DNA of 64,000 nt from Escherichia coli (GTDB taxonomy: Bacteria > Pseudomonadota > Gammaproteobacteria > Enterobacterales > Enterobacteriaceae): assembly GCF_002854065.1 (NCBI RefSeq), contig NZ_CP024147.1; one strand, 5' to 3'. Of the stretch, positions 12,033-50,723 are shown piece by piece. The translations under genes and the position numbers were made by a program. The notes beneath the pieces are model-generated. The model was not told the origin of the DNA and ran no database searches. It saw nothing but the letters and a program-made list of their open reading frames with translations. How positions within the stretch are numbered: the stretch's first letter is position 1; each line of letters starts with the position of its first letter.

Positions 12033-12304
12033 TTTGCTTGATCCCTATGAAATAACCGTACCGTTCATGAGACAATTCTAACCGTGAGCATTTCGCCGGT
12101 TGATTGTTTACGGCGAGACGGGAATTTGCTCACTTTTTGACTTTCCGTTACGCAACAGAAAAAGTTAAAAACGAAAAGACTAAAATCACATGTCTTGTGA
12201 CCTGCTAAATTGATTCACATGCTAAATCTGATAAGTTTTAATTTCAATGGTAGGTTTATTTCTTAGCTTTCGCTAGTAAACTGATAATCAGACAAAATGG
12301 TGAC
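12033..12304. promoter_or_regulatory. Divergent bcsR / bcsE intergenic control region (AT-rich)
   Basis: 272-bp AT-rich gap between divergently oriented bcsR (minus) and bcsE (plus); no individual promoter elements were mapped. Confidence 0.4.
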
Positions 12305-13876
12305 ATGAGGGACATTGTGGACCCTGTATTCTCTATCGGTATCTCATCATTATGGGATGAGCTGCGACATATGCCAGCAGGCGGCGTCTGGTGGTTTAAC
12401 GTCGATCGCCATGAAGATGCTATCAGTCTGGCGAATCAAACAATTGCATCCCAGGCTGAAACCGCACACGTCGCGGTCATTAGCATGGACAGCGATCCGG
12501 CGAAAATCTTTCAATTAGATGATTCTCAAGGGCCGGAAAAAATAAAATTATTTTCAATGCTAAATCATGAAAAAGGTCTATACTATTTGGCCCGTGATTT
12601 GCAGTGTTCTATTGATCCCCATAATTACCTTTTTATTCTTGTTTGCGCAAATAACGCATGGCAAAACATTCCTGCCGAGCGGCTGCGCTCATGGTTGGAT
12701 AAAATGAATAAATGGAGCAGGTTAAACCATTGTTCGCTTTTGGTAATTAATCCCGGAAATAATAACGATATACAATTTTCATTGTTGCTTGAGGAATACC
12801 GTTCACTTTTTGGTCTTGCCAGTTTGCGTTTTCAGGGCGACCAACATTTGCTGGATATTGCCTTCTGGTGCAACGAAAAAGGGGTCAGCGCCCGTCAGCA
12901 GCTTAGCGTTCAGCAACAAAATGGTATCTGGACATTAGTTCAAAGCGAAGAGGCGGAGATCCAACCACGCAGCGACGAAAAACGCATTCTGAGTAATGTT
13001 GCTGTACTGGAAGGTGCGCCGCCGCTATCGGAACACTGGCAACTGTTCAACAATAACGAAGTCCTGTTCAATGAAGCCCGTACCGCTCAGGCGGCGACGG
13101 TGGTCTTTTCTTTACAGCAAAATGCGCAAATCGAGCCACTGGCCCGCAGCATTCATACTCTGCGTCGCCAGCGCGGTAGTGCGATGAAAATCCTCGTACG
13201 GGAAAATACCGCTAGCCTGCGCGCCACCGATGAACGTTTGTTATTGGCCTGCGGTGCAAATATGGTTATCCCGTGGAATGCGCCACTCTCCCGCTGTCTG
13301 ACGATGATCGAAAGCGTGCAAGGGCAGAAGTTTAGTCGCTATGTGCCGGAAGATATCACTACCTTGCTGTCAATGACCCAGCCGCTCAAACTGCGTGGTT
13401 TCCAGAAGTGGGATGTGTTCTGTAATGCCGTCAACAACATGATGAATAACCCTCTTTTGCCTGCCCACGGTAAAGGTGTTCTGGTTGCCCTACGTCCGGT
13501 ACCGGGTATCCGCGTTGAGCAAGCCCTGACGCTATGTCGCCCTAACCGTACCGGCGATATCATGACCATTGGCGGTAATCGGCTGGTGCTGTTTCTCTCA
13601 TTCTGTCGGATTAACGATCTGGATACCGCGTTGAATCATATTTTCCCATTGCCTACTGGCGACATTTTCTCAAACCGTATGGTCTGGTTTGAAGATGATC
13701 AAATCAGTGCCGAGCTGGTGCAGATGCGCCTGCTTGCCCCAGAACAATGGGGCATGCCGCTGCCTTTAACACAAAGTTCTAAACCGGTCATCAATGCCGA
13801 GCACGATGGTCGCCACTGGCGACGAATACCAGAACCCATGCGACTGTTAGATGATGCTGTGGAGCGCTCATCATGA
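12305..13876 (+). CDS. bcsE: Cellulose biosynthesis protein BcsE (c-di-GMP-binding GIL domain)
   Basis: 523-aa [30 protein letters not shown]...; position and length match BcsE (YhjS). Confidence 0.9.
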
Positions 13877-14064
13877 TGACCATCAGCGATATCATTGAAA
13901 TTATTGTCGTTTGCGCACTGATATTTTTCCCGCTGGGCTATCTGGCGCGGCACTCTTTGCGACGCATTCGCGACACCTTACGTTTGTTCTTTGCTAAACC
14001 TCGTTATGTTAAACCGGCTGGGACGTTACGCCGCACGGAAAAAGCCAGGGCAACCAAAAAATGA
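13873..14064 (+). CDS. bcsF: Small membrane protein BcsF
   Basis: 63-aa ORF with one hydrophobic helix ([18 protein letters not shown]); ATGA overlap with bcsE, and its stop overlaps the bcsG start. Confidence 0.85.
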
Positions 14065-15740
14065 CTCAATTTACGCAAAATACCGCCATGCCTTCTTCCC
14101 TCTGGCAATACTGGCGCGGCCTTTCCGGCTGGAACTTCTATTTTCTGGTTAAGTTCGGCCTGTTGTGGGCGGGATATCTTAACTTCCATCCGCTCCTCAA
14201 TTTGGTGTTTGCCGCGTTTCTGCTGATGCCCATTCCGCGCTACAGCCTGCATCGCTTGCGCCACTGGATTGCCCTGCCGATCGGCTTTGCTTTGTTCTGG
14301 CATGACACCTGGTTGCCTGGCCCGGAAAGCATAATGAGCCAGGGTTCGCAGGTGGCGGGGTTCAGTACCGATTATTTAATCGACCTTGTCACACGCTTTA
14401 TTAACTGGCAGATGATTGGGGCCATTTTTGTTTTATTAGTGGCCTGGTTATTCTTGTCACAATGGATTCGCATTACCGTTTTTGTGGTTGCCATACTGCT
14501 ATGGCTGAACGTACTTACCCTGGCGGGACCAAGTTTCTCCTTGTGGCCAGCCGGTCAACCGACGACCACTGTAACAACGACGGGTGGTAACGCAGCGGCA
14601 ACCGTTGCGGCGACGGGTGGCGCACCGGTAGTGGGTGATATGCCCGCACAAACTGCACCGCCAACAACGGCGAACCTTAACGCCTGGCTGAATAATTTCT
14701 ATAACGCGGAGGCGAAACGTAAATCGATCTTCCCGTCTTCGCTGCCCGCTGATGCTCAGCCATTTGAACTACTGGTGATTAATATCTGTTCGCTTTCCTG
14801 GTCGGATATAGAAGCCGCCGGGTTGATGTCGCATCCGCTGTGGTCGCATTTCGATATTGAGTTCAAGAACTTTAACTCCGCCACCTCCTACAGTGGCCCG
14901 GCAGCGATCCGTTTACTGCGCGCCAGCTGCGGGCAGACTTCGCACACTAATCTGTATCAACCGGCAAATAACGACTGCTATCTGTTTGATAACCTGTCGA
15001 AACTGGGCTTTACCCAGCACCTGATGATGGGATATAACGGCCAGTTCGGCGGTTTTTTGAAAGAAGTTCGCGAAAATGGCGGCATGCAGACTGAATTGAT
15101 GGATCAAACAAATCTGCCGGTTATTTTGCTGGGCTTTGATGGTTCGCCGGTTTATGACGATACCGCCGTGCTTAACCGCTGGCTGGACGTTACCGAAAAA
15201 GATAAAAACAGCCGTAGTGCCACGTTCTACAACACGCTTCCACTGCATGACGGCAACCATTATCCGGGCGTCAGCAAAACAGCGGATTACAAAGCGCGGG
15301 CGCAGAAATTCTTTGATGAACTGGACGCCTTCTTTACTGAACTGGAGAAATCGGGTCGTAAAGTGATGGTGGTCGTGGTGCCGGAACACGGCGGCGCGCT
15401 GAAGGGCGACAGAATGCAGGTATCTGGCCTACGTGATATCCCTAGCCCGTCTATCACCGACGTCCCCGTTGGGGTGAAATTCTTCGGCATGAAGGCACCA
15501 CATCAGGGGGCACCGATTGTCATCGACCAACCGAGCAGCTTCCTGGCTATCTCCGATCTGGTGGTTCGCGTTCTTGATGGCAAGATTTTCACCGAAGATA
15601 ATGTTGACTGGAAAAAACTCACCAGTGGGTTGCCACAAACAGCACCGGTCTCCGAGAACTCAAATGCAGTAGTTATTCAATACCAGGATAAACCGTACGT
15701 TCGCCTGAACGGCGGCGACTGGGTGCCTTACCCGCAGTAA
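14061..15740 (+). CDS. bcsG: Cellulose phosphoethanolamine transferase BcsG
   Basis: 559-aa ORF with N-terminal membrane helices and a C-terminal alkaline-phosphatase-like domain; ends 2 bp before the first ldr repeat unit. Confidence 0.9.
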
Positions 15741-15744
15741 GCAC

Positions 15745-15776
15745 GAAAAAGGCCGCAGAGTTTCACCCCTGCGGCC
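15745..15776 (-). terminator. Rho-independent terminator hairpin of ldr copy 1; also abuts the bcsG 3' end
   Basis: Palindrome ggccgcag-N10-ctgcggcc at 15751-15776, with an A-run on the plus strand (a U-run on the minus-strand transcript). Confidence 0.6.
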
Positions 15777-15826
15777 TGGTCCGGGCGCAAATTGCCATTA
15801 CGGCAGCCTGACGCCCGCATGACACG

Positions 15827-15934
15827 TTACTTCCGCTTGTTCAGCCAGTTCACGATCATACTGGCAAGAATGCCAGCAATGACCGGAGTCGCTAAATCAT
15901 GCCAGAAGGCCATGCCCAGTTCTGCGAGCGTCAT
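15827..15934 (-). CDS. ldrD: Ldr-family type I toxin peptide (35 aa), copy 1
   Basis: MTLAELGMAFWHDLATPVIAGILASMIVNWLNKRK; the 80-aa track ORF 15827..16069 is an upstream extension of this 35-aa peptide. Confidence 0.8.
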   Translation of the reverse strand: MTLAELGMAFWHDLATPVIAGILASMIVNWLNKRK

Positions 15935-15984
15935 ATAGCCGCCTGTGTTGTAATGACAACGTTTCGCGGCTATTCTTGAATGGT

Positions 15985-16050
15985 CTAGGTTCAAGATTAG
16001 CCCCCGTGGTGTTGTCAGGTGCATACCTGCAACGTGCGGGGGTTTTCTCT
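15985..16050 (+). ncRNA. rdlD: Rdl-type antisense RNA partner of ldr copy 1 (coordinates approximate)
   Basis: Placed from the recalled LDR architecture (about 66 nt, antisense to the ldr 5' leader, starting about 50 nt beyond the ldr start codon); no ends were mapped from the sequence. Confidence 0.3.
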
Positions 16051-16309
16051 CTCCAGCAACCAATGCCACCAGGGATTAAGCCCCCGCAACATTGCGCATC
16101 ACCGGAATCCTTCCGGCTTATCGCTGATTCTACGACTGTTTTTCTGTTCCGGAATCCGTCACGTCTTCACTCTGTGCTGCGCATTCCGCAGAATATTATC
16201 CGCTTGCAATCGTTGCATTTTTCTTACGAAAAAGGCCGCAGAGTTTCACCCCTGCGGCCTGGTCCGGGCGCAAATTGCCATTACGGCAGCCTGACGCCCG
16301 CATGACACG

Positions 16310-16417
16310 TTACTTCCGCTTGTTCAGCCAGTTCACGATCATACTGGCAAGAATGCCAGCAATGACCGGAGCCGCTAAATCATGCCAGAAGGCCATGCCC
16401 AGTTCTGCGAGCGTCAT
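16310..16417 (-). CDS. Ldr-family type I toxin peptide (35 aa), copy 2
   Basis: MTLAELGMAFWHDLAAPVIAGILASMIVNWLNKRK; differs from copy 1 by one residue (A16 versus T16). Confidence 0.8.
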   Translation of the reverse strand: MTLAELGMAFWHDLAAPVIAGILASMIVNWLNKRK

Positions 16418-16467
16418 ATAGCCGCCTGTGTTGTAATGACAACGTTTCGCGGCTATTCTTGAATGGT

Positions 16468-16533
16468 CTAGGTTCAAGATTAGCCCCCGTGGTGTTGTCA
16501 GGTGCATACCTGCAACGTGCGGGGGTTTTCTCT
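16468..16533 (+). ncRNA. Rdl-type antisense RNA partner of ldr copy 2 (coordinates approximate)
   Basis: Same reasoning as for copy 1, shifted by the 483-bp repeat period. Confidence 0.3.
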
Positions 16534-16892
16534 CTCCAGCAACCAATGCCACCAGGGATTAAGCCCCCGCAACATTGCGCCTCACCGGAACCCTTCCGGC
16601 TTGCCGCTAATTTTACGATTGCTTTTTACTGTCAGCACTCGGCAATCTTCCTCATTGCGTGATGCCTTCCAGCTTAATTTCTTAATTTGCAATAGTTGCA
16701 GTTCATATCCGGGCTGACTCCAGACTGGTAGTGAAATGCGCAATTTTGTAGAATTGCGCCTCCTCGCGACCTCCCCAGTGAATCTGTTGCCTCATTTTTT
16801 ACATACTGCGTATTCGACTTCTCCACCTGTTGCGCAAGAGAAACTGGGTTTATTCATTTTTGCGAGGCCGACTTCTTTCTGGACAGGACTTT

Positions 16893-18164
16893 ATGCAGCA
16901 CAACACACTACCGAAACACGATCAGAAATTGCCGTTTACACGCTACGACTTCGGCTGGGTTTTATTATGCATAGGCATGGCGATTGGTGCCGGAACCGTA
17001 CTGATGCCAGTACAAATTGGCTTGAAGGGAATTTGGGTATTTATTACCGCAGCGATCATTGCTTATCCTGCCACCTGGGTAGTGCAGGACATTTATTTAA
17101 AAACCCTTTCTGAAAGCGATTCCTGTAATGACTACACCGATATTATCAGTCATTACCTGGGGAAGAACTGGGGAATTTTCCTCGGGGTTATCTACTTTTT
17201 GATGATTATCCACGGGATTTTTATCTACTCTCTCTCCGTGGTTTTCGACAGCGCCTCGTACCTGAAAACCTTCGGTTTAACCGATGCCGATCTTTCACAA
17301 TCTCTACTTTATAAAGTCGCTATTTTCGCCGTACTGGTAGCGATTGCGTCTGGTGGTGAACGATTACTGTTTAAGATTTCTGGGCCAATGGTGGTGGTCA
17401 AAGTAGGGATTATTGTCGTGTTCGGTTTTGCGATGATCCCGCACTGGAATTTCGCCAATATAACCGCCTTCCCGCAAGCCTCCGTCTTTTTCCGCGATGT
17501 CCTGCTTACCATTCCATTTTGCTTCTTTTCTGCAGTATTTATTCAGGTACTTAACCCAATGAATATTGCCTATCGTAAACGGGAAGCGGATAAAGTACTG
17601 GCAACCCGGCTCGCGCTGCGTACCCACCGAATTAGTTATATCACGCTCATCGCGGTGATACTGTTTTTTGCCTTTTCGTTTACCTTCTCAATTAGCCACG
17701 AAGAAGCCGTTTCTGCCTTTGAACAAAATATCTCGGCACTGGCACTGGCCGCGCAGGTGATCCCTGGGCATATCATTCATATCACCTCTACGGTGCTGAA
17801 TATCTTTGCCGTACTGACCGCATTCTTTGGCATTTATCTCGGTTTCCACGAGGCCATTAAAGGCATTATTCTCAATCTGTTAAGCCGAATTATTGATACC
17901 AAGAAAATTAACTCACGCATGCTGACTCTGGCGATCTGCGCTTTTATCGTCATTACGTTGACGATTTGGGTTTCGTTTCGTGTATCGGTGCTGGTGTTCT
18001 TTCAGTTGGGAAGCCCATTATATGGCATTGTGTCGTGCCTCATTCCGTTTTTCCTGATCTATAAAGTCGCACAACTGGAAAAACTTCGCGGATTTAAAGC
18101 CTGGCTGATTCTGCTTTACGGCATTTTGCTATGCTTGTCGCCACTGTTGAAGCTGATTGAGTAA
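16893..18164 (+). CDS. yhjV: Inner-membrane transporter YhjV (HAAAP family, hydroxy/aromatic amino acid permease-like)
   Basis: ORF 16830..18164; start trimmed to [25 protein letters not shown] (423 aa) with GGA-rich RBS upstream; polytopic membrane protein. Confidence 0.85.
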
Positions 18165-18193
18165 ACCGGAGCGCATGGCCCCGGTTTTGTGAG

Positions 18194-19198
18194 TTAACGC
18201 TGCGGATTTTCATCCTGATCAACAGCAAAACAAGCTACCAGTTGACCGCCGTAGTCTTTTAGCTGCGGCTGCAACTGGGTGCAGGGGCCGAAGCGCCGAC
18301 GACAGCGGGCGTTAAACGCGCAGCCCGGCGGTGGATTCAGCGGGCTTGGCAGTTCACCGGTGAGTTTGATGCGCTCGCGGCGATCGTCCGGGTTCAGGCG
18401 TGGTGTAGCGGAAAGTAGCGCCTGAGTGTACGGATGACGCGGGTTATTGAAGATTTGGTCTTTCGTTCCCTTCTCCACGCAGCGGCCCAGGTACATCACC
18501 ATCACTTCATCAGCAATGTGCTCCACCACCGACAGGTCGTGGGAGATGAAGACATAAGAAAGCCCCAGTTCCTGCTGCAAATCCATCATCAGGTTGAGCA
18601 CCTGTGCACGCACCGAGACGTCCAGCGCGGAGACCGGTTCATCGGCAATCACCACGTCCGGGTCGAGCATCAGACCACGGGCAATAGCGATACGCTGACG
18701 TTGTCCGCCGGAGAACATATGCGGATAGCGGTCATAGTGCTCGGTTTTCAGGCCGACTTTCGCCATCATCGACAGGGCTTTTTCCCGACGCTGTTCTTTG
18801 CTTAAACTGGTGTTGATCAGCAGCGGCTCTTCAAGAATTTGCCCGACTTTTTTACGCGGATTCAGCGAACCGTAAGGGTTCTGGAAGACAATCTGGATTT
18901 TCTGCCGACGCAGCTTCTGCGCCTGCGGATCGTGCTTAAGCAGATCCTGCCCCTGGTAATACAGCTCGCCGCCGGTGGGCGTTTCAATCATCGTCAGCAA
19001 CCGACCGAGGGTCGATTTACCGCAGCCAGATTCACCTACTACCGCCAGCGTTTTGCCACGTTCAAGGTTAAACGAAACGCCGTCCAGCGCCTTCACCAGA
19101 CGTTCCGGAGCGAACATACCTTTCTTCACCGGATAATGTTTTTTCAGGTCGATAGCCTGCAACAGCGGTTGTTGCGAGGTGGCCTCTTGCGTACTCAT
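18194..19198 (-). CDS. dppF: Dipeptide ABC transporter ATP-binding protein DppF
   Basis: 334-aa ORF with Walker [10 protein letters not shown] and ABC signature LSGGQRQR. Confidence 0.95.
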
Positions 19199-22292: not shown

Positions 22293-22391
22293 GCCGGATG
22301 CGGCGTTAACGCCTTATCCGGCCTACAAAATCGTGCAAACTCAATACATTGCAGAATTTTCGTAGGCCTGATAAGCGGAGCGCATCAGGCA
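22293..22391. repeat. Pair of inverted REP elements (BIME-like) in the dppA-dppB intergenic region
   Basis: gccggatgcggcgttaacgccttatccggcctac at 22293-22326 and its inverted partner gtaggcctgataagcggagcgcatcaggc at 22362-22391. Confidence 0.6.
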
Positions 22392-24068: not shown

Positions 24069-24752
24069 ACCCTTTGCAGTGGGTTGTCGCTGCCTGACCT
24101 TTTTTGTTTTTTGCCCGGTCGGGTCAACGTTATGAGGTGGGGATGCCGTACTAATTAACATCAGTGTAACAGTGCGGATCCTCCATAAAATGCCCCTCGT
24201 GACCTACAATCTGTCAACAGAATGTGAAAACGTCAATACAGCCAACCGGGATTTACACCAACGGTGAGAATCCACAAACAAAGATTAAAAAAACTTCAAA
24301 CAGCTATTTGCAGCAGAGAAATTTGTGCTACTCCAACATGACCAGAACAATCAGCTTAATATTTAGCAACATTTGGTGATTAAGTTTTATGCATTTAATG
24401 AAAAAAATCTGAGGAAAAGGTGGATATCTGAGCGATTAATACCATGAACGCTAAAACGCACAGCGGAAAATGCCAGCGCCAGCCATAAGTAACGCAAAAA
24501 AAGATTTAAGCAAATATAAAAAAAGACAATGGTTTCTGTCACAAATCCGTTAATGGATAGTGAGATATGGGGCGCAAATTTGGCAGGGAAATGTGTGGTG
24601 TGCTGCCGTTTAGGTCGGATAAGACGGGTACGCTGCATCCGACAATGAGTGCGCTGCCGTTGCCTGATGCGACGCTGACGCGTCTTATCAGGCCTACGTC
24701 GAGTCGAACCTCCCTGCCCCCGGAGGTTCTCATCCTCTTCAGATCGCAGAAA

Positions 24753-24787: not shown

Positions 24788-24864
<77 letters not shown>

Positions 24865-31086: not shown

Positions 31087-31229
31087 TGAGCTATTTCTCC
31101 TGAAAAGATATTAATCAATCAACATTTTTAGTGATCATTTCCGCTGACGATCCAAAGTCATTGATGGCGTTATAGGTGATGCTGCCAACTTACTGATTTA
31201 GTGTATGATGGTGTTTTTGAGGTGCTCCA

Positions 31230-31505
31230 GTGGCTTCTGTTTCTATCAGCTGTCCCTCCTGTTCAGCTACTGACGGGGTGGTGCGTAACGGCAAAAGCAC
31301 TGCCGGACATCAGCGCTATCTCTGCTCTCACTGCCGTAAAACATGGCAACTGCAGTTCACTTACACCGCTTCTCAACCCGGTACGCACCAGAAAATCATT
31401 GATATGGCCATGAATGGCGTTGGATGCCGGGCAACCGCCCGCATTATGGGCGTTGGCCTCAACACGATTTTCCGCCATTTAAAAAACTCAGGCCGCAGTC
31501 GGTAA
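31230..31505 (+). CDS. insA: IS1 InsA (DNA-binding regulator/repressor)
   Basis: 91-aa [43 protein letters not shown]... (zinc-finger-like Cys pairs). Confidence 0.9.
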
Positions 31506-31927
31506 CCTCGCGCATACAGCCGGGCAGTGACGTCATCGTCTGCGCGGAAATGGACGAACAGTGGGGATACGTCGGGGCTAAATCGCGCCAGCGCTGGCTG
31601 TTTTACGCGTATGACAGGCTCCGGAAGACGGTTGTTGCGCACGTATTCGGTGAACGCACTATGGCGACGCTGGGGCGTCTTATGAGCCTGCTGTCACCCT
31701 TTGACGTGGTGATATGGATGACGGATGGCTGGCCGCTGTATGAATCCCGCCTGAAGGGAAAGCTGCACGTAATCAGCAAGCGATATACGCAGCGAATTGA
31801 GCGGCATAACCTGAATCTGAGGCAGCACCTGGCACGGCTGGGACGGAAGTCGCTGTCGTTCTCAAAATCGGTGGAGCTGCATGACAAAGTCATCGGGCAT
31901 TATCTGAACATAAAACACTATCAATAA
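31424..31927 (+). CDS. insB: IS1 InsB (transposase is made as an InsAB' fusion by -1 frameshift)
   Basis: 167-aa ORF in the -1 frame relative to insA, as in canonical IS1. Confidence 0.85.
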
Positions 31928-32515
31928 GTTGGAGTCATTACCGGCGTTATATTTAATTTTAGAAACGCTACCTACCCCGGCGGGTAATGTGATATTTAAT
32001 GCCCCTTTAGCGGGTACCATGCCTGCTTTTTCAATTTCTTTGTCATTCGCAAAAAATTGATTAAAGGTAATATTAAAAACTGTCGGATTATCAACGCGGA
32101 GCTGATTACCGTTACGCGTAAATCGCAGTTCATTTGGCGCGGTTTTTACATCACCCTTTAAACCTGCCGGGCGATAAAAAAGTTTGATTCGGGTGCGAAC
32201 GGCAATCTGCAAAACATTTTTGTTTTCGCTGTCGTCACTTTTAGATGGAATGGCTTTCACATTAACCCAGTAGACCGATTCGCGATCCTGAGGCAGGCCG
32301 GGCGTAATATTCACAATACGCAAAATATTGTTCTTTTCTGGATCAAGCTTGAATAGTGGGGGCGTAATAATAAACGGTGTTTTTTTGCTGCCCGCGGCAT
32401 CATCCACCCAGGATTGGATAAGAAACTCTTCCGTCTTACTTTTATTCTGTACGGTCAGCGGGTGATGCTGCCAACTTACTGATTTAGTGTATGATGGTGT
32501 TTTTGAGGTGCTCCA

Positions 32516-32791
32516 GTGGCTTCTGTTTCTATCAGCTGTCCCTCCTGTTCAGCTACTGACGGGGTGGTGCGTAACGGCAAAAGCACCGCCGGACATCAGC
32601 GCTATCTCTGCTCTCACTGCCGTAAAACATGGCAACTGCAGTTCACTTACACCGCTTCTCAACCCGGTACGCACCAGAAAATCATTGATATGGCCATGAA
32701 TGGCGTTGGATGCCGGGCAACTGCCCGCATTATGGGCGTTGGCCTCAACACGATTTTACGTCACTTAAAAAACTCAGGCCGCAGTCGGTAA
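32516..32791 (+). CDS. insA: IS1 InsA, copy B
   Basis: 91-aa ORF; one substitution relative to copy A (NTILRHL versus NTIFRHL). Confidence 0.9.
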
Positions 32792-33213
32792 CCTCGCGCA
32801 TACAGCCGGGCAGTGACGTCATCGTCTGCGCGGAAATGGACGAACAGTGGGGCTATGTCGGGGCTAAATCGCGCCAGCGCTGGCTGTTTTACGCGTATGA
32901 CAGTCTCCGGAAGACGGTTGTTGCGCACGTATTCGGTGAACGCACTATGGCGACGCTGGGGCGTCTTATGAGCCTGCTGTCACCCTTTGACGTGGTGATA
33001 TGGATGACGGATGGCTGGCCGCTGTATGAATCCCGCCTGAAGGGAAAGCTGCACGTAATCAGCAAGCGATATACGCAGCGAATTGAGCGGCATAACCTGA
33101 ATCTGAGGCAGCACCTGGCACGGCTGGGACGGAAGTCGCTGTCGTTCTCAAAATCGGTGGAGCTGCATGACAAAGTCATCGGGCATTATCTGAACATAAA
33201 ACACTATCAATAA
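32710..33213 (+). CDS. insB: IS1 InsB, copy B
   Basis: 167-aa ORF; differs from copy A at several residues (MPGNCPHY...DFTSLKK...YDSLRK versus MPGNRPHY...DFPPFKK...YDRLRK). Confidence 0.85.
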
Positions 33214-43248: not shown

Positions 43249-43369
43249 ACTTTTATCCACTTTATTGCTGTTTACGGTCCTGATGACAGGACCGTTTTCC
43301 AACCGATTAATCATAAATATGAAAAATAATTGTTGCATCACCCGCCAATGCGTGGCTTAATGCACATCA

Positions 43370-43528
43370 ACGGTTTGACGTACAGACCATTAAAGCAGTG
43401 TAGTAAGGCAAGTCCCTTCAAGAGTTATCGTTGATACCCCTCGTAGTGCACATTCCTTTAACGCTTCAAAATCTGTAAAGCACGCCATATCGCCGAAAGG
43501 CACACTTAATTATTAAAGGTAATACACT
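43370..43528 (+). promoter_or_regulatory. cspA promoter and long 5' UTR (cold-shock regulatory leader)
   Basis: About 160 bp of leader upstream of the cspA ATG with RBS aggtaat; assignment by homology to the known cspA leader, boundaries approximate. Confidence 0.5.
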
Positions 43529-43741
43529 ATGTCCGGTAAAATGACTGGTATCGTAAAATGGTTCAACGCTGACAAAGGCTTCGGCTTCATCACTCCTGAC
43601 GATGGCTCTAAAGACGTGTTCGTACACTTCTCTGCTATCCAGAACGATGGTTACAAATCTCTGGACGAAGGTCAGAAAGTGTCCTTCACCATCGAAAGCG
43701 GCGCTAAAGGCCCGGCAGCTGGTAACGTAACCAGCCTGTAA
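43529..43741 (+). CDS. cspA: Major cold-shock protein CspA
   Basis: 70-aa [73 protein letters not shown] with RNP1/RNP2 motifs. Confidence 0.95.
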
Positions 43742-43768
43742 TCTCTGCTTAAAAGCACAGAATCTAAG

Positions 43769-43800
43769 ATCCCTGCCATTTGGCGGGGATTTTTTTATTT
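43769..43800 (+). terminator. Rho-independent terminator of cspA
   Basis: atccctgcc-attt-ggcggggat hairpin followed by tttttttattt. Confidence 0.7.
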
Positions 43801-43927: not shown

Positions 43928-44066
43928 CTTACTCTTTCAAATTGCAGGCTAAAAATGCCGCCAGCTCATAACCCCCCTGTTTAATATGCAATTCACACAG
44001 TGAATCTCTTATCATCCAGGTGAAAAATAAAAGCGTGAAACAAATGGGTGCAGTACACTTTTTGAT
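43928..44066 (-). pseudogene. hokA: hokA-like Hok-family type I toxin remnant, 5'-truncated (no start codon, N-terminal residues replaced)
   Basis: Minus frame reads (stop)IKKCTAPICFTLLFFTWMIRDSLCELHIKQGGYELAAFLACNLKE(stop). The last 37 residues match recalled HokA; the first 13 (MPQKYRLLSLIV...) are missing and no ATG/GTG/TTG precedes the conserved part in frame. Confidence 0.5.
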
Positions 44067-48897: not shown

Positions 48898-49421
48898 ACG
48901 TGAGTTATTCGCTGTATTCTTCCTGGGTAACCTGTGTTTCTTTTGGTGGGTTTATTCCGGCATCACGAATATTTTTCTGCACCGCTACTGCACCAAACAA
49001 GCTTAAGAAGAAAGCCAGTCCATAAAAACCTTTTTCGCTGAGTAATAATGTCGCATTCCACAGACCTACCATCAGTAATGCAACAGAGATAATAAAGACA
49101 GTCAGGCAGGTCATATAATAAATGGAAGTGGTCGGTATGCCTTCATACTTGTCCCGAACAGTCTTTTGATAAGACGCCGCAGAAAACAGTCCTAATACCA
49201 GTACGGCAAAATAATATCCTTTTTCATTTAACTGCATCTCTGCATTCCATAGCCCTAACAGATAGGTAACGATACCACCAACGAGAGCTATCCATGACAC
49301 AATACTAAAGGCCGGTGAATAGGTTGATATTAGACTGGCCCCCTGAATCTCCAGACAACCAATATCACTTAAATAAGTGATAGTCTTAATACTAGTTTTT
49401 AGACTAGTCATTGGAGAACAG

Positions 49422-49787
49422 ATGATTGATGTCTTAGGGCCGGAGAAACGCAGACGGCGTACCACACAGGAAAAGATCGCAATTGTTCAGCAGAGCTTTG
49501 AACCGGGGATGACGGTCTCCCTCGTTGCCCGGCAACATGGTGTAGCAGCCAGCCAGTTATTTCTCTGGCGTAAGCAATACCAGGAAGGAAGTCTTACTGC
49601 TGTCGCCGCCGGAGAACAGGTTGTTCCTGCCTCTGAACTTGCTGCCGCCATGAAGCAGATTAAAGAACTCCAGCGCCTGCTCGGCAAGAAAACGATGGAA
49701 AATGAACTCCTCAAAGAAGCCGTTGAATATGGACGGGCAAAAAAGTGGATAGCGCACGCGCCCTTATTGCCCGGGGATGGGGAGTAA
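49422..49787 (+). CDS. insC: IS2 OrfA (InsC), HTH transposase N-terminal component
   Basis: 121-aa frame from [41 protein letters not shown]...; the track ORF starts 45 nt earlier at an upstream ATG. Confidence 0.9.
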
Positions 49788-50650
49788 GCTTAGTCAGCCG
49801 TTGTCTCCGGGTGTCGCGTGCGCAGTTGCACGTCATTCTCAGACGAACCGATGACTGGATGGATGGCCGCCGCAGTCGTCACACTGATGATACGGATGTG
49901 CTTCTCCGTATACACCATGTTATCGGAGAGCTGCCCACGTATGGTTATCGTCGGGTATGGGCGCTGCTTCGCAGACAGGCAGAACTTGATGGTATGCCTG
50001 CGATCAATGCCAAACGTGTTTACCGGATCATGCGCCAGAATGCGCTGTTGCTTGAGCGAAAACCTGCTGTACCGCCATCGAAACGGGCACATACAGGCAG
50101 AGTGGCCGTGAAAGAAAGCAATCAGCGATGGTGCTCTGACGGGTTCGAGTTCTGCTGTGATAACGGAGAGAGACTGCGTGTCACGTTCGCGCTGGACTGC
50201 TGTGATCGTGAGGCACTGCACTGGGCGGTCACTACCGGCGGCTTCAACAGTGAAACAGTACAGGACGTCATGCTGGGAGCGGTGGAACGCCGCTTCGGCA
50301 ACGATCTTCCGTCGTCTCCAGTGGAGTGGCTGACGGATAATGGTTCATGCTACCGGGCTAATGAAACACGCCAGTTCGCCCGGATGTTGGGACTTGAACC
50401 GAAGAACACGGCGGTGCGGAGTCCGGAGAGTAACGGAATAGCAGAGAGCTTCGTGAAAACGATAAAGCGTGACTACATCAGTATCATGCCCAAACCAGAC
50501 GGGTTAACGGCAGCAAAGAACCTTGCAGAGGCGTTCGAGCATTATAACGAATGGCATCCGCATAGTGCGCTGGGTTATCGCTCGCCACGGGAATATCTGC
50601 GGCAGCGGGCTTGTAATGGGTTAAGTGATAACAGATGTCTGGAAATATAG
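49745..50650 (+). CDS. insD: IS2 OrfB (InsD), DDE integrase-fold transposase component (fused to OrfA by -1 frameshift)
   Basis: 301-aa [26 protein letters not shown]... overlapping the insC 3' end in the -1 frame. Confidence 0.9.
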
Positions 50651-50723
50651 GGGCAAATCCAGATATTTTGTTGTCCATCACAGTATTCCTTTCATTCCTG
50701 AATGTGTAAGAGCTTTATATTGC

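What the first reader, a model, noticed from the sequence alone, without database searches (positions are those of the whole stretch)
15743..16629. Two tandem ldr/rdl type I toxin-antitoxin units where K-12 has a single ldrD
A roughly 400-bp unit containing a 35-aa Ldr toxin ORF and its terminator hairpin appears twice with a 483-bp period (15743 and 16226). The peptides differ by one residue (T16 versus A16). From memory, K-12 has one LDR unit (ldrD/rdlD) next to bcsG and a triple tandem only at another locus, so this is a copy-number variant of a toxin locus right beside the cellulose genes. The near-identical repeats are also a substrate for unequal recombination.
Basis: partly seen in the sequence, partly recalled or inferred. 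Interest (0 to 1): 0.55.

Follow-up and report, generated by a model that had tools for sequence, protein, structure and literature searches.

The report
Two tandem Ldr/Rdl toxin-antitoxin units
Between the cellulose gene bcsG and the transporter gene yhjV this E. coli carries two tandem copies of the known ldrD/rdlD small-toxin/antisense-RNA module where K-12 has one, but this is an ordinary, already annotated state of a repeat array that ranges from one to four copies across E. coli.

Summary
Window 15743-16119 and 16226-16602 are 377-nt direct repeats with 3 mismatches and a 483-nt period. Each holds a minus-strand 35-aa Ldr ORF (Pfam Ldr_toxin, 34/35 identical to LdrD of PDB 5LBJ), a plus-strand RdlD antisense RNA (Rfam RF01813, 89 bits, the two copies identical) and terminators for both RNAs. 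The peptides differ only at residue 16 (T versus A). K-12 MG1655 has one ldrD/rdlD at this locus and a triple array only at kdsA-chaA, so the comparison from memory holds.

It is not unusual. In a systematic sample of 60 of 5,426 complete E. coli genomes, the bcsG-yhjV interval held 1 unit in 24, 2 in 6, 3 in 14 and 4 in 12. RefSeq already annotates these arrays, including the two-unit form in strains 100416, CUWW06 and probably Nissle 1917. The spacer between units is shared across strains and with Escherichia sp. E1V33, so the array is old, not a fresh duplication. Genomes with at least 99.3% identical flanks carry 1, 2, 3 or 4 units, which fits frequent unequal recombination. The T16 allele is rare but real. 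Verdict: a known type I toxin-antitoxin in a known copy-number-variable array. Low interest.

The parts
14061..15740 (+). bcsG (cellulose phosphoethanolamine transferase), left flank of the array
   Evidence: 559-aa ORF. It is the same gene order as K-12 and the other E. coli genomes.
15743..16225 (.). LDR unit 1, an 'internal'-type unit of 483 nt
   Evidence: Direct repeat. It is 96-99.6% identical to the upstream units of the 2-, 3- and 4-unit arrays of other strains, and only 87-89% identical to terminal units.
15750..15777 (-). Intrinsic terminator of ldr mRNA, unit 1
   Evidence: An 11-bp G+C-rich stem followed by a T-run. It is conserved in all LDR units aligned.
15827..15934 (-). ldr ORF of unit 1: 35-aa toxin, rare T16 allele
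   Evidence: ORF. Pfam Ldr_toxin E=7.7e-26. 34/35 identical to PDB 5LBJ LdrD. The exact peptide is on record in the public collection (8 contigs counted; 10 contigs read) but in none of the 5,405 matching records of complete E. coli genomes.
15948..15976 (+). Candidate rdl promoter of unit 1 (TTGTAA, 17 nt, TATTCT), read by eye
   Evidence: Sequence inspection only. It falls below the threshold of the consensus scan. Its position fits an RdlD 5' end at G15983, taken from the Rfam alignment.
15983..16048 (+). rdl antisense RNA gene, unit 1
   Evidence: Rfam RF01813, 89.2 bits, full length 1-66. Predicted stem-loop with U-tail, -29.5 kcal/mol, z=-4.4.
16015..16092 (-). 25-aa ORF in the ldr 5' leader, partly covered by RdlD. 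It is one candidate for the proposed 'ldrX' leader ORF.
   Evidence: ORF list. It is kept in K-12 LDR-A, B and D, frameshifted in LDR-C, and lacks the ATG in Citrobacter sedlakii. Function untested.
16127..16132 (-). Candidate -10 box (TAGAAT) of the ldr promoter, unit 1. The inferred mRNA 5' end is near 16119-16121.
   Evidence: The box aligns across D-type and A/B/C-type units and Citrobacter. High identity between the two repeats stops exactly here. Inferred, not mapped.
16120..16225 (.). Inter-unit spacer (upstream region of the ldr promoter of unit 1)
   Evidence: It differs from the equivalent region of unit 2. It is homologous to the inter-unit spacer of Escherichia sp. E1V33 and of other E. 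coli arrays.
16226..16708 (.). LDR unit 2, the terminal unit and positional orthologue of K-12 LDR-D
   Evidence: 97.3% identical to K-12 LDR-D over 483 nt, and 97% identical to the last unit of the 3-unit arrays.
16233..16260 (-). Intrinsic terminator of ldr mRNA, unit 2
16310..16417 (-). ldr ORF of unit 2: 35-aa toxin, common A16 allele (the WP_001295224 sequence)
   Evidence: The exact peptide is on at least 1000 contigs. It differs from K-12 LdrD by F3L.
16466..16531 (+). rdl antisense RNA gene, unit 2, identical to unit 1
   Evidence: Rfam RF01813, 89.2 bits. Identity to unit 1 shown.
16610..16615 (-). Candidate -10 box (TAAAAT) of the ldr promoter, unit 2
   Evidence: Alignment. Inferred.
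16893..18164 (+). yhjV (putative transporter), right flank of the array
   Evidence: ORF. The 423-aa product and gene position are the same as annotated in K-12 and other genomes.

Best explanation
The region is a two-unit allele of the chromosomal LDR-D array, made of ldrD/rdlD-type type I toxin-antitoxin modules, at its usual site between bcsG and yhjV.

Each unit appears to carry the following. A minus-strand ldr mRNA of about 375 nt runs from an inferred start near 16120 (unit 1) or 16603 (unit 2) to a hairpin terminator. It has a 5' leader of about 185 nt, followed by a 35-aa hydrophobic inner-membrane toxin ORF. A 66-nt RdlD RNA is made from the opposite strand and is fully complementary to the middle of that leader.

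By analogy with K-12 ldrD/rdlD, the short-lived RdlD pairs with the stable ldr mRNA and blocks its translation. Published work shows that the duplex is an RNase III substrate. If RdlD falls, LdrD is made, and when overproduced it arrests growth.

The two rdl genes and their target segments are identical, so I infer that the two units share one antitoxin pool. They would then act as a double dose rather than as two insulated modules.

Unit 2 is the orthologue of the single K-12 unit. Unit 1 is an 'internal' array unit with a different sequence upstream of its promoter. The copy number (1 to 4, rarely more) changes by unequal homologous recombination between units.

Shown here: the sequence anatomy, the family membership, K-12 having one unit, and the population distribution. 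Inferred: the transcript ends, the promoters, shared regulation, and the recombination mechanism.
For: Repeat structure. Ldr ORFs. Pfam PF13940 full length, E=7.7e-26. 34/35 identity to the solved LdrD structure 5LBJ. Two full-length Rfam rdlD hits at 89.2 bits, against a gathering score of 50. Terminators on both strands. The predicted ldr mRNA is highly structured (-177.9 kcal/mol, z=-9.3), and RdlD folds as a stem-loop with a U-tail.

K-12 has one unit here and three at kdsA-chaA. Positional orthology of the units across strains. The same two-unit architecture, with a homologous spacer, occurs in Escherichia sp. E1V33.

Copy-number sample: 24, 6, 14 and 12 genomes with 1, 2, 3 and 4 units, giving a sample mean of 2.25. 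This agrees with 12,383 D-type ldr matches in 5,404 genomes, or 2.29 per genome. The closest genomes by flank identity carry 1 to 4 units. An independent assembly, GCA_035821435.1, matches the window at 5107 of 5108 positions, including T16.

[quoted passage not shown] RdlD inhibits translation by an unknown mechanism, and the LdrD structure is a membrane helix (PMC8309996). An ldrD-rdlD dsRNA is captured in vivo, and RNase III affects the transcripts (PMC7373196). Lineage-specific tandem duplication of ldr-rdl: PMC2887945.
Against: No expression data exist for this strain. The consensus sigma-70 scan found no promoter in the region, so the promoters are read by eye and from alignment only.

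The two units differ upstream of the -10 box, and in the -10 box itself (TAGAAT versus TAAAAT), so they may not be expressed equally. The effect of A16T on toxicity is unknown.

The leader-ORF model is not supported by clean conservation. The in-frame upstream ATG is absent from LDR-A/B/C. The 25-aa ORF is frameshifted in LDR-C and lacks its ATG in Citrobacter.
Confidence: 0.93

Rival explanations
1. The second copy is an assembly artefact: a repeat wrongly expanded, or a mis-join.
For: Tandem repeats near 500 nt are sometimes mis-assembled from short reads. The E. albertii contig breaks inside its LDR next to yhjV.
Against: The two copies differ at 3 positions within the repeat and have different distal ~106-nt segments. 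The same two-unit structure is present in complete genomes 100416 and CUWW06. It is also present, including T16, in the independent assembly GCA_035821435.1 at 5107/5108 identity.
Confidence: 0.01
2. It is a recent duplication specific to this strain or its close lineage, and so a new event relative to other E. coli.
For: The transcribed parts of the two units are 99.2% identical. Only about 11% of sampled genomes have exactly two units.
Against: Unit 1 groups with the upstream units of 3- and 4-unit arrays in unrelated strains (96%). Its spacer is homologous to the inter-unit spacer in Escherichia sp. E1V33. High identity within the array is better explained by gene conversion, or by contraction from a longer array. 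The nearest relatives by flank identity (99.4-99.7%) mostly have 3 units.
Confidence: 0.04
3. One of the two units, most likely unit 1 with T16 and the non-K-12 promoter context, is silent or encodes an attenuated toxin, so that functionally there is only one module.
For: The T16 allele is rare: it is absent from all 5,405 matching records of complete genomes. The region upstream of the unit 1 promoter differs from that of the characterised K-12 unit.
Against: In unit 1 the ORF, the sequence around the start codon, rdl, the terminators and the -10 box (TAGAAT, the same as in K-12 LDR-D) are all intact. Internal units are conserved across strains. T16 recurs in several array backgrounds.
Confidence: 0.1

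Closest known systems
E. coli K-12 LDR-D (ldrD/rdlD, b4453/b4454) between bcsG and yhjV
   Same: Same locus, same orientation and same parts. Unit 2 is 97.3% identical to K-12 LDR-D over 483 nt. The peptide differs by F3L only (unit 2) or by F3L plus A16T (unit 1). RdlD is a full-length Rfam match.
   Different: K-12 has one unit and the window has two. Unit 1 has an inter-unit spacer that K-12 lacks.
E. coli K-12 LDR-A/B/C triple array (ldrABC/rdlABC) between kdsA and chaA
   Same: A tandem array of the same kind of module, with the same internal layout: terminator, ORF, antisense RNA over the 5' leader, conserved -10 box.
   Different: A different locus with a ~535-nt period. It is only 71-73% identical in DNA, and the peptide is about 57% identical according to the literature. 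It belongs to the LdrB group rather than the LdrD group (PMC2887945).
Multi-unit LDR-D arrays annotated in other E. coli: 2 units in 100416 and CUWW06 (Nissle 1917 also appears to have 2, from its span); 3 units in ST131 18044 and EcPF7; 4 units in MS6198
   Same: Same locus and same unit types. 100416 and CUWW06 have 100.0% identical flanks and the same two-unit layout. For Nissle 1917 the two-unit state is inferred from the span alone.
   Different: Copy number differs. In addition, 100416 and CUWW06 carry A16 in both units, whereas the window has T16 in unit 1.
hok/sok and ibs/sib type I toxin-antitoxin loci
   Same: A small membrane toxin repressed by a cis-encoded antisense RNA. ibs/sib and ldr/rdl are both known to be tandemly duplicated within a single intergenic region.
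   Different: The toxin families are unrelated. Sib RNAs discriminate between cognate targets (abstract of PMC2943612), whereas here the two Rdl RNAs and their targets are identical.

Membership tests
Ldr/Rdl (LDR) type I toxin-antitoxin | 35-aa hydrophobic Ldr peptide (Pfam PF13940 Ldr_toxin) | tested here: met
   Full-length Pfam match 1-35/35, E=7.7e-26. 34/35 identical to LdrD of PDB 5LBJ. Both ORFs are intact.
Ldr/Rdl (LDR) type I toxin-antitoxin | Rdl sRNA encoded in cis on the opposite strand, complementary to the ldr 5' leader and not to the ORF or start codon | tested here: met
   Rfam RF01813 at 89.2 bits (gathering score 50), full length, in both units. Each lies 49 nt beyond the ldr start codon on the opposite strand.
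Ldr/Rdl (LDR) type I toxin-antitoxin | Own transcription signals for both RNAs (promoters and intrinsic terminators) | tested here: inconclusive
   Terminators were found for both RNAs in both units. No promoter passed the consensus scan. The candidate -10 boxes rest on alignment and inspection only.
Ldr/Rdl (LDR) type I toxin-antitoxin | The peptide is toxic when overproduced, and Rdl counteracts it | not testable with these tools
   Known for K-12 LdrD/RdlD from the literature. Not tested for the L3/A16 or L3/T16 peptides of this strain.
LDR-D locus (positional orthologue of K-12 ldrD) | Lies between bcsG and yhjV, with ldr on the strand opposite to both | tested here: met
   The same arrangement occurs in E. 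whittamii, Escherichia sp. E1V33 and Citrobacter sedlakii.
Copy-number-variable LDR-D tandem array | The same unit types and inter-unit spacer recur in other genomes with different unit numbers | tested here: met
   Sample of 60 genomes: 24, 6, 14 and 12 with 1, 2, 3 and 4 units. Arrays of 2, 3 and 4 units were verified by annotation. Unit orthology. Spacer homology.

The most novel reading that the evidence does not exclude
The LDR-D array next to the cellulose genes might act as a fast-switching dosage locus. Unit number (1 to 4 or more) changes among near-identical lineages. The internal units carry a different promoter-upstream region, and so possibly different regulation, from the terminal K-12-type unit. 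Copy number, or recurrent alleles such as A16T, might then tune stress-induced growth arrest or persistence and be under selection rather than neutral.
Probability: 0.08. Interest if true: 0.4.

Novelty: already known. Interest (0 to 1): 0.12.

Why it matters
It matters little beyond correct annotation. Both ldr ORFs and both rdl genes should be annotated, and analyses that take K-12 as the reference should not assume a single ldrD. The useful by-product is a rough population picture. K-12's single unit is the commonest single state (about 43% of the sample) but still a minority: 2 to 4 units together make up about 57%. Unit number also differs among genomes whose flanks are at least 99.3% identical. 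This means that deletion or persistence studies of 'ldrD' in non-K-12 strains must account for several identical toxin and antitoxin copies.

Tried and rejected
1. The NCBIfam scan of both peptides gave no family. Pfam and PDB were used instead.

2. The consensus promoter scan found no sigma-70 site in 15650-16950. Promoter calls are therefore only by alignment and by eye.

3. The Kawano et al. 2002 DNA Research paper comparing LDR copies between strains is not in the held library, so I could not check whether per-locus copy numbers were already tabulated. A full-text search for Ldr, copies and phylogroup found nothing relevant.

4. The genome-contig scan with a 17-mer from rdl gave 28 loci. 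Only 8 were enterobacterial LDR loci. The rest are the chance matches expected for a 17-mer in 298 Gb.

5. Leader-ORF test: neither the in-frame upstream ATG nor the 25-aa ORF is cleanly conserved across the D-type units, the A/B/C-type units and Citrobacter. I do not endorse a specific ldrX.

6. The fresh-duplication and assembly-artefact readings were rejected.

7. Two scripts failed for trivial reasons: a wrong regular expression and a wrong file path. Both were rerun.

Full report
OBSERVATION. The repeat finder gives one direct-repeat family, 15743-16042 and 16226-16525, 483 nt apart. A base-by-base comparison extends the near-identity to 15743-16119 versus 16226-16602. That is 377 nt with three mismatches, at 15889, 16098 and 16108. 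After that, the remaining ~106 nt of each period are only loosely alike. Each copy has a minus-strand 35-aa ORF. ORF 15827-15934 encodes MTLAELGMAFWHDLATPVIAGILASMIVNWLNKRK, and ORF 16310-16417 encodes the same peptide with A at residue 16. Each has a minus-strand hairpin terminator, at 15777..15750 and 16260..16233. The flanks are bcsG (14061-15740, +) and yhjV (16893-18164, +).

WHAT IT IS. Both units are complete ldr/rdl type I toxin-antitoxin modules.
- The peptide is a full-length match to Pfam Ldr_toxin PF13940 (E=7.7e-26).
- It is 34/35 identical to the LdrD whose NMR structure is PDB 5LBJ.
- On the plus strand, 49 nt beyond each ldr start codon, Rfam finds a full-length rdlD antitoxin RNA (RF01813, 89.2 bits against a gathering score of 50), at 15983-16048 and 16466-16531.
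- The two rdl copies are identical. They fold into the expected stem-loop with a U-tail (-29.5 kcal/mol, z=-4.4).

An alignment of mRNA-sense sequences was made from the window, K-12 LDR-A/B/C/D, E. whittamii, Escherichia sp. E1V33, MS6198 and Citrobacter sedlakii. It shows a conserved -10-like box (TAGAAT, TAGTAT or TAAAAT) just upstream of the point where conservation begins (AAGCCGG...). In the window this places the ldr mRNA 5' ends near 16120 and 16603. The near-identical 377-nt block therefore coincides with the inferred ldr transcription unit, from start to terminator. This is an inference, not a mapped end. The predicted 377-nt RNA is unusually structured (-177.9 kcal/mol, z=-9.3).

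HOW IT MOST LIKELY WORKS. From the literature on K-12:
- LdrD overproduction is toxic and RdlD counteracts it. RdlD overlaps the long 5' UTR rather than the ribosome binding site. A leader ORF ('ldrX') coupling model was proposed but not confirmed (PMC4147584).
- RdlD inhibits ldrD translation by an unknown mechanism, and LdrD is a membrane-binding helix (PMC8309996).
- An ldrD-rdlD duplex is captured in vivo as an RNase III product (PMC7373196).

I looked for a leader ORF. In D-type units an in-frame ATG inside the RdlD-complementary segment reads straight into ldr. A separate 25-aa ORF (16092..16015, minus strand) ends inside that segment. The in-frame ATG is absent from LDR-A/B/C. The 25-aa ORF is frameshifted in LDR-C and has no ATG in Citrobacter. 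The comparative evidence therefore does not settle the model.

The two rdl genes and their targets are identical, so I infer that the two units share one antitoxin pool and behave as a double dose. This differs from the ibs/sib family, where cognate pairs discriminate (abstract of PMC2943612).

COMPARISON WITH K-12. MG1655 has exactly one ldrD and one rdlD between bcsG and yhjV. It has a triple ldrABC/rdlABC array only between kdsA and chaA.

HOW UNUSUAL IS TWO? Not at all. I searched the 5,426 complete E. coli genomes with a 5-kb query made only of the two flanks (window 13243-15742 joined to 16630-19129), and read the size of the interval from the span of each hit. The 60 genomes were taken at even steps down the ranking.

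| Units in the interval | Genomes | Note |
|---|---|---|
| 1 | 24 | one of these has a small deletion |
| 2 | 6 | includes Nissle 1917 |
| 3 | 14 | |
| 4 | 12 | |
| other | 4 | two carry insertions, two are partial or plasmid hits |

The implied mean is 2.25 units. This agrees with an independent count: a 60-mer from the D-type ldr ORF matches 12,383 places in 5,404 genomes, or 2.29 per genome, with a maximum of 6. RefSeq annotation confirms the reading for arrays of 2 units (CUWW06, 100416), 3 units (EcPF7, ST131 strain 18044) and 4 units (MS6198).

AGE AND DYNAMICS. In a 20-unit alignment, the last unit next to yhjV in every strain is the orthologue of K-12 LDR-D (window unit 2 versus K-12, 97.3%). 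The upstream units of different strains group with each other (window unit 1 versus EcPF7 u1/u2 and MS6198 u1, about 96%). Upstream units are only 87-89% identical to terminal units, and the difference lies in the promoter-upstream spacer. Escherichia sp. E1V33 has the same two-unit layout with a homologous spacer, whereas E. whittamii and Citrobacter sedlakii have one unit at this locus. The array is therefore old and shared, not a new duplication.

Copy number nonetheless changes quickly. Among the 40 genomes closest to the window by flank identity:
- the two with 100.0% identity have 2 units;
- those with 99.4-99.7% identity have 3 units (24 genomes) or 4 units (6 genomes);
- the O145:H28-type genomes at 99.3-99.4% have 1 unit (8 genomes).

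This is what unequal recombination between ~380-nt near-identical repeats would produce. The mechanism itself is inferred.

THE T16 ALLELE. The exact 60-mer around the A16T codon is absent from all 5,405 matching records of complete genomes, each of which has one mismatch. The exact peptide is nevertheless on record in the large public collection (8 contigs counted; sequence confirmed). Ten contigs that carry it were read and eight places are shown. In these the T16 ORF occurs in 4-, 3-, 2- and 1-unit arrays on different backgrounds. One assembly, GCA_035821435.1, matches the window at 5107 of 5108 positions and has T16 in the same unit. T16 is therefore a real, rare and apparently recurrent allele, not a sequencing error. 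Its effect is unknown.

RIVALS. An assembly artefact is excluded by the internal differences between the units and by the independent assemblies. A strain-specific duplication is excluded by the cross-strain orthology of unit 1. A silent or attenuated unit 1 cannot be excluded without expression and toxicity data, but every recognisable element is intact.

NOVELTY AND VERDICT. The module, its locus and its tendency to duplicate in tandem in a lineage-specific way are all described (PMC2887945). The exact two-unit allele is already annotated in RefSeq genomes. The finding is real and correctly interpreted, but it is ordinary. The only mildly new output here is the rough copy-number distribution and the evidence that it turns over among close relatives.

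LIMITS.
- The distribution rests on a 60-genome systematic sample plus one aggregate count.
- Promoters and transcript ends are inferred.
- No expression or toxicity data exist for this strain.
- The key comparative paper (Kawano et al. 2002, DNA Research) was not available.

Noticed in passing
window 31175-31946 and 32460-33228: Two IS1 copies, both on the + strand, each with InsA (91 aa) and InsB (167 aa) ORFs. They bracket a 528-nt fragment of the long-polar-fimbria chaperone gene lpfB. In the near-identical strain 100416 the lpf operon is uninterrupted, so lpfB is disrupted in this strain.
   Followed up: partly
window 49332-50661: A 1330-nt insertion relative to strain 100416, between yiaB and yiaA. 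It carries IS2-like InsC/InsD ORFs (49377-49787 and 49745-50650, + strand).
   Followed up: partly
window ~12267-12279: Strain 100416, otherwise 99.94% identical here, has an IS1 between the divergent bcsE and bcsR genes. The window lacks it, so the bcs control region is intact in this strain.
   Followed up: partly
window ~43929-44066 (- strand), next to cspA at 43369-43796: A second type I toxin gene lies in the window. It is a hok-family ORF (...CFTLLFFTWMIRDSLCELHIKQGGYELAAFLACNLKE) at the place where strain 100416 annotates hokA, just downstream of the cspA thermoregulator (Rfam RF01766, 501 bits). The start codon and sok were not checked.
   Followed up: partly
window 22327-22369 and 24613-24694; tRNA at 24791-24864 (-): Rfam gathering-level hits to ES036 (CssrF) and naRNA4 (CssrE) in the dpp/eptB region, and a tRNA that is annotated as tRNA-Pro in strain 100416.
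   Followed up: no
loci L036-L042 (other assemblies carrying the T16 Ldr allele): The rare A16T Ldr allele appears in the bcsG-proximal unit of 4-unit and 2-unit arrays, in the middle unit of a 3-unit array, and in a single-unit locus, on flanks 98.0-99.98% identical to the window. This suggests recurrent mutation or gene conversion between units.
   Followed up: partly
hits H49 and H97 (other E. coli genomes): Two sampled genomes have larger insertions in or near the bcsG-yhjV-dppF region. One has an IS1 (span 7146). The other carries a HipA-family toxin gene among its annotated features (span 8216). Neither was examined.
   Followed up: no
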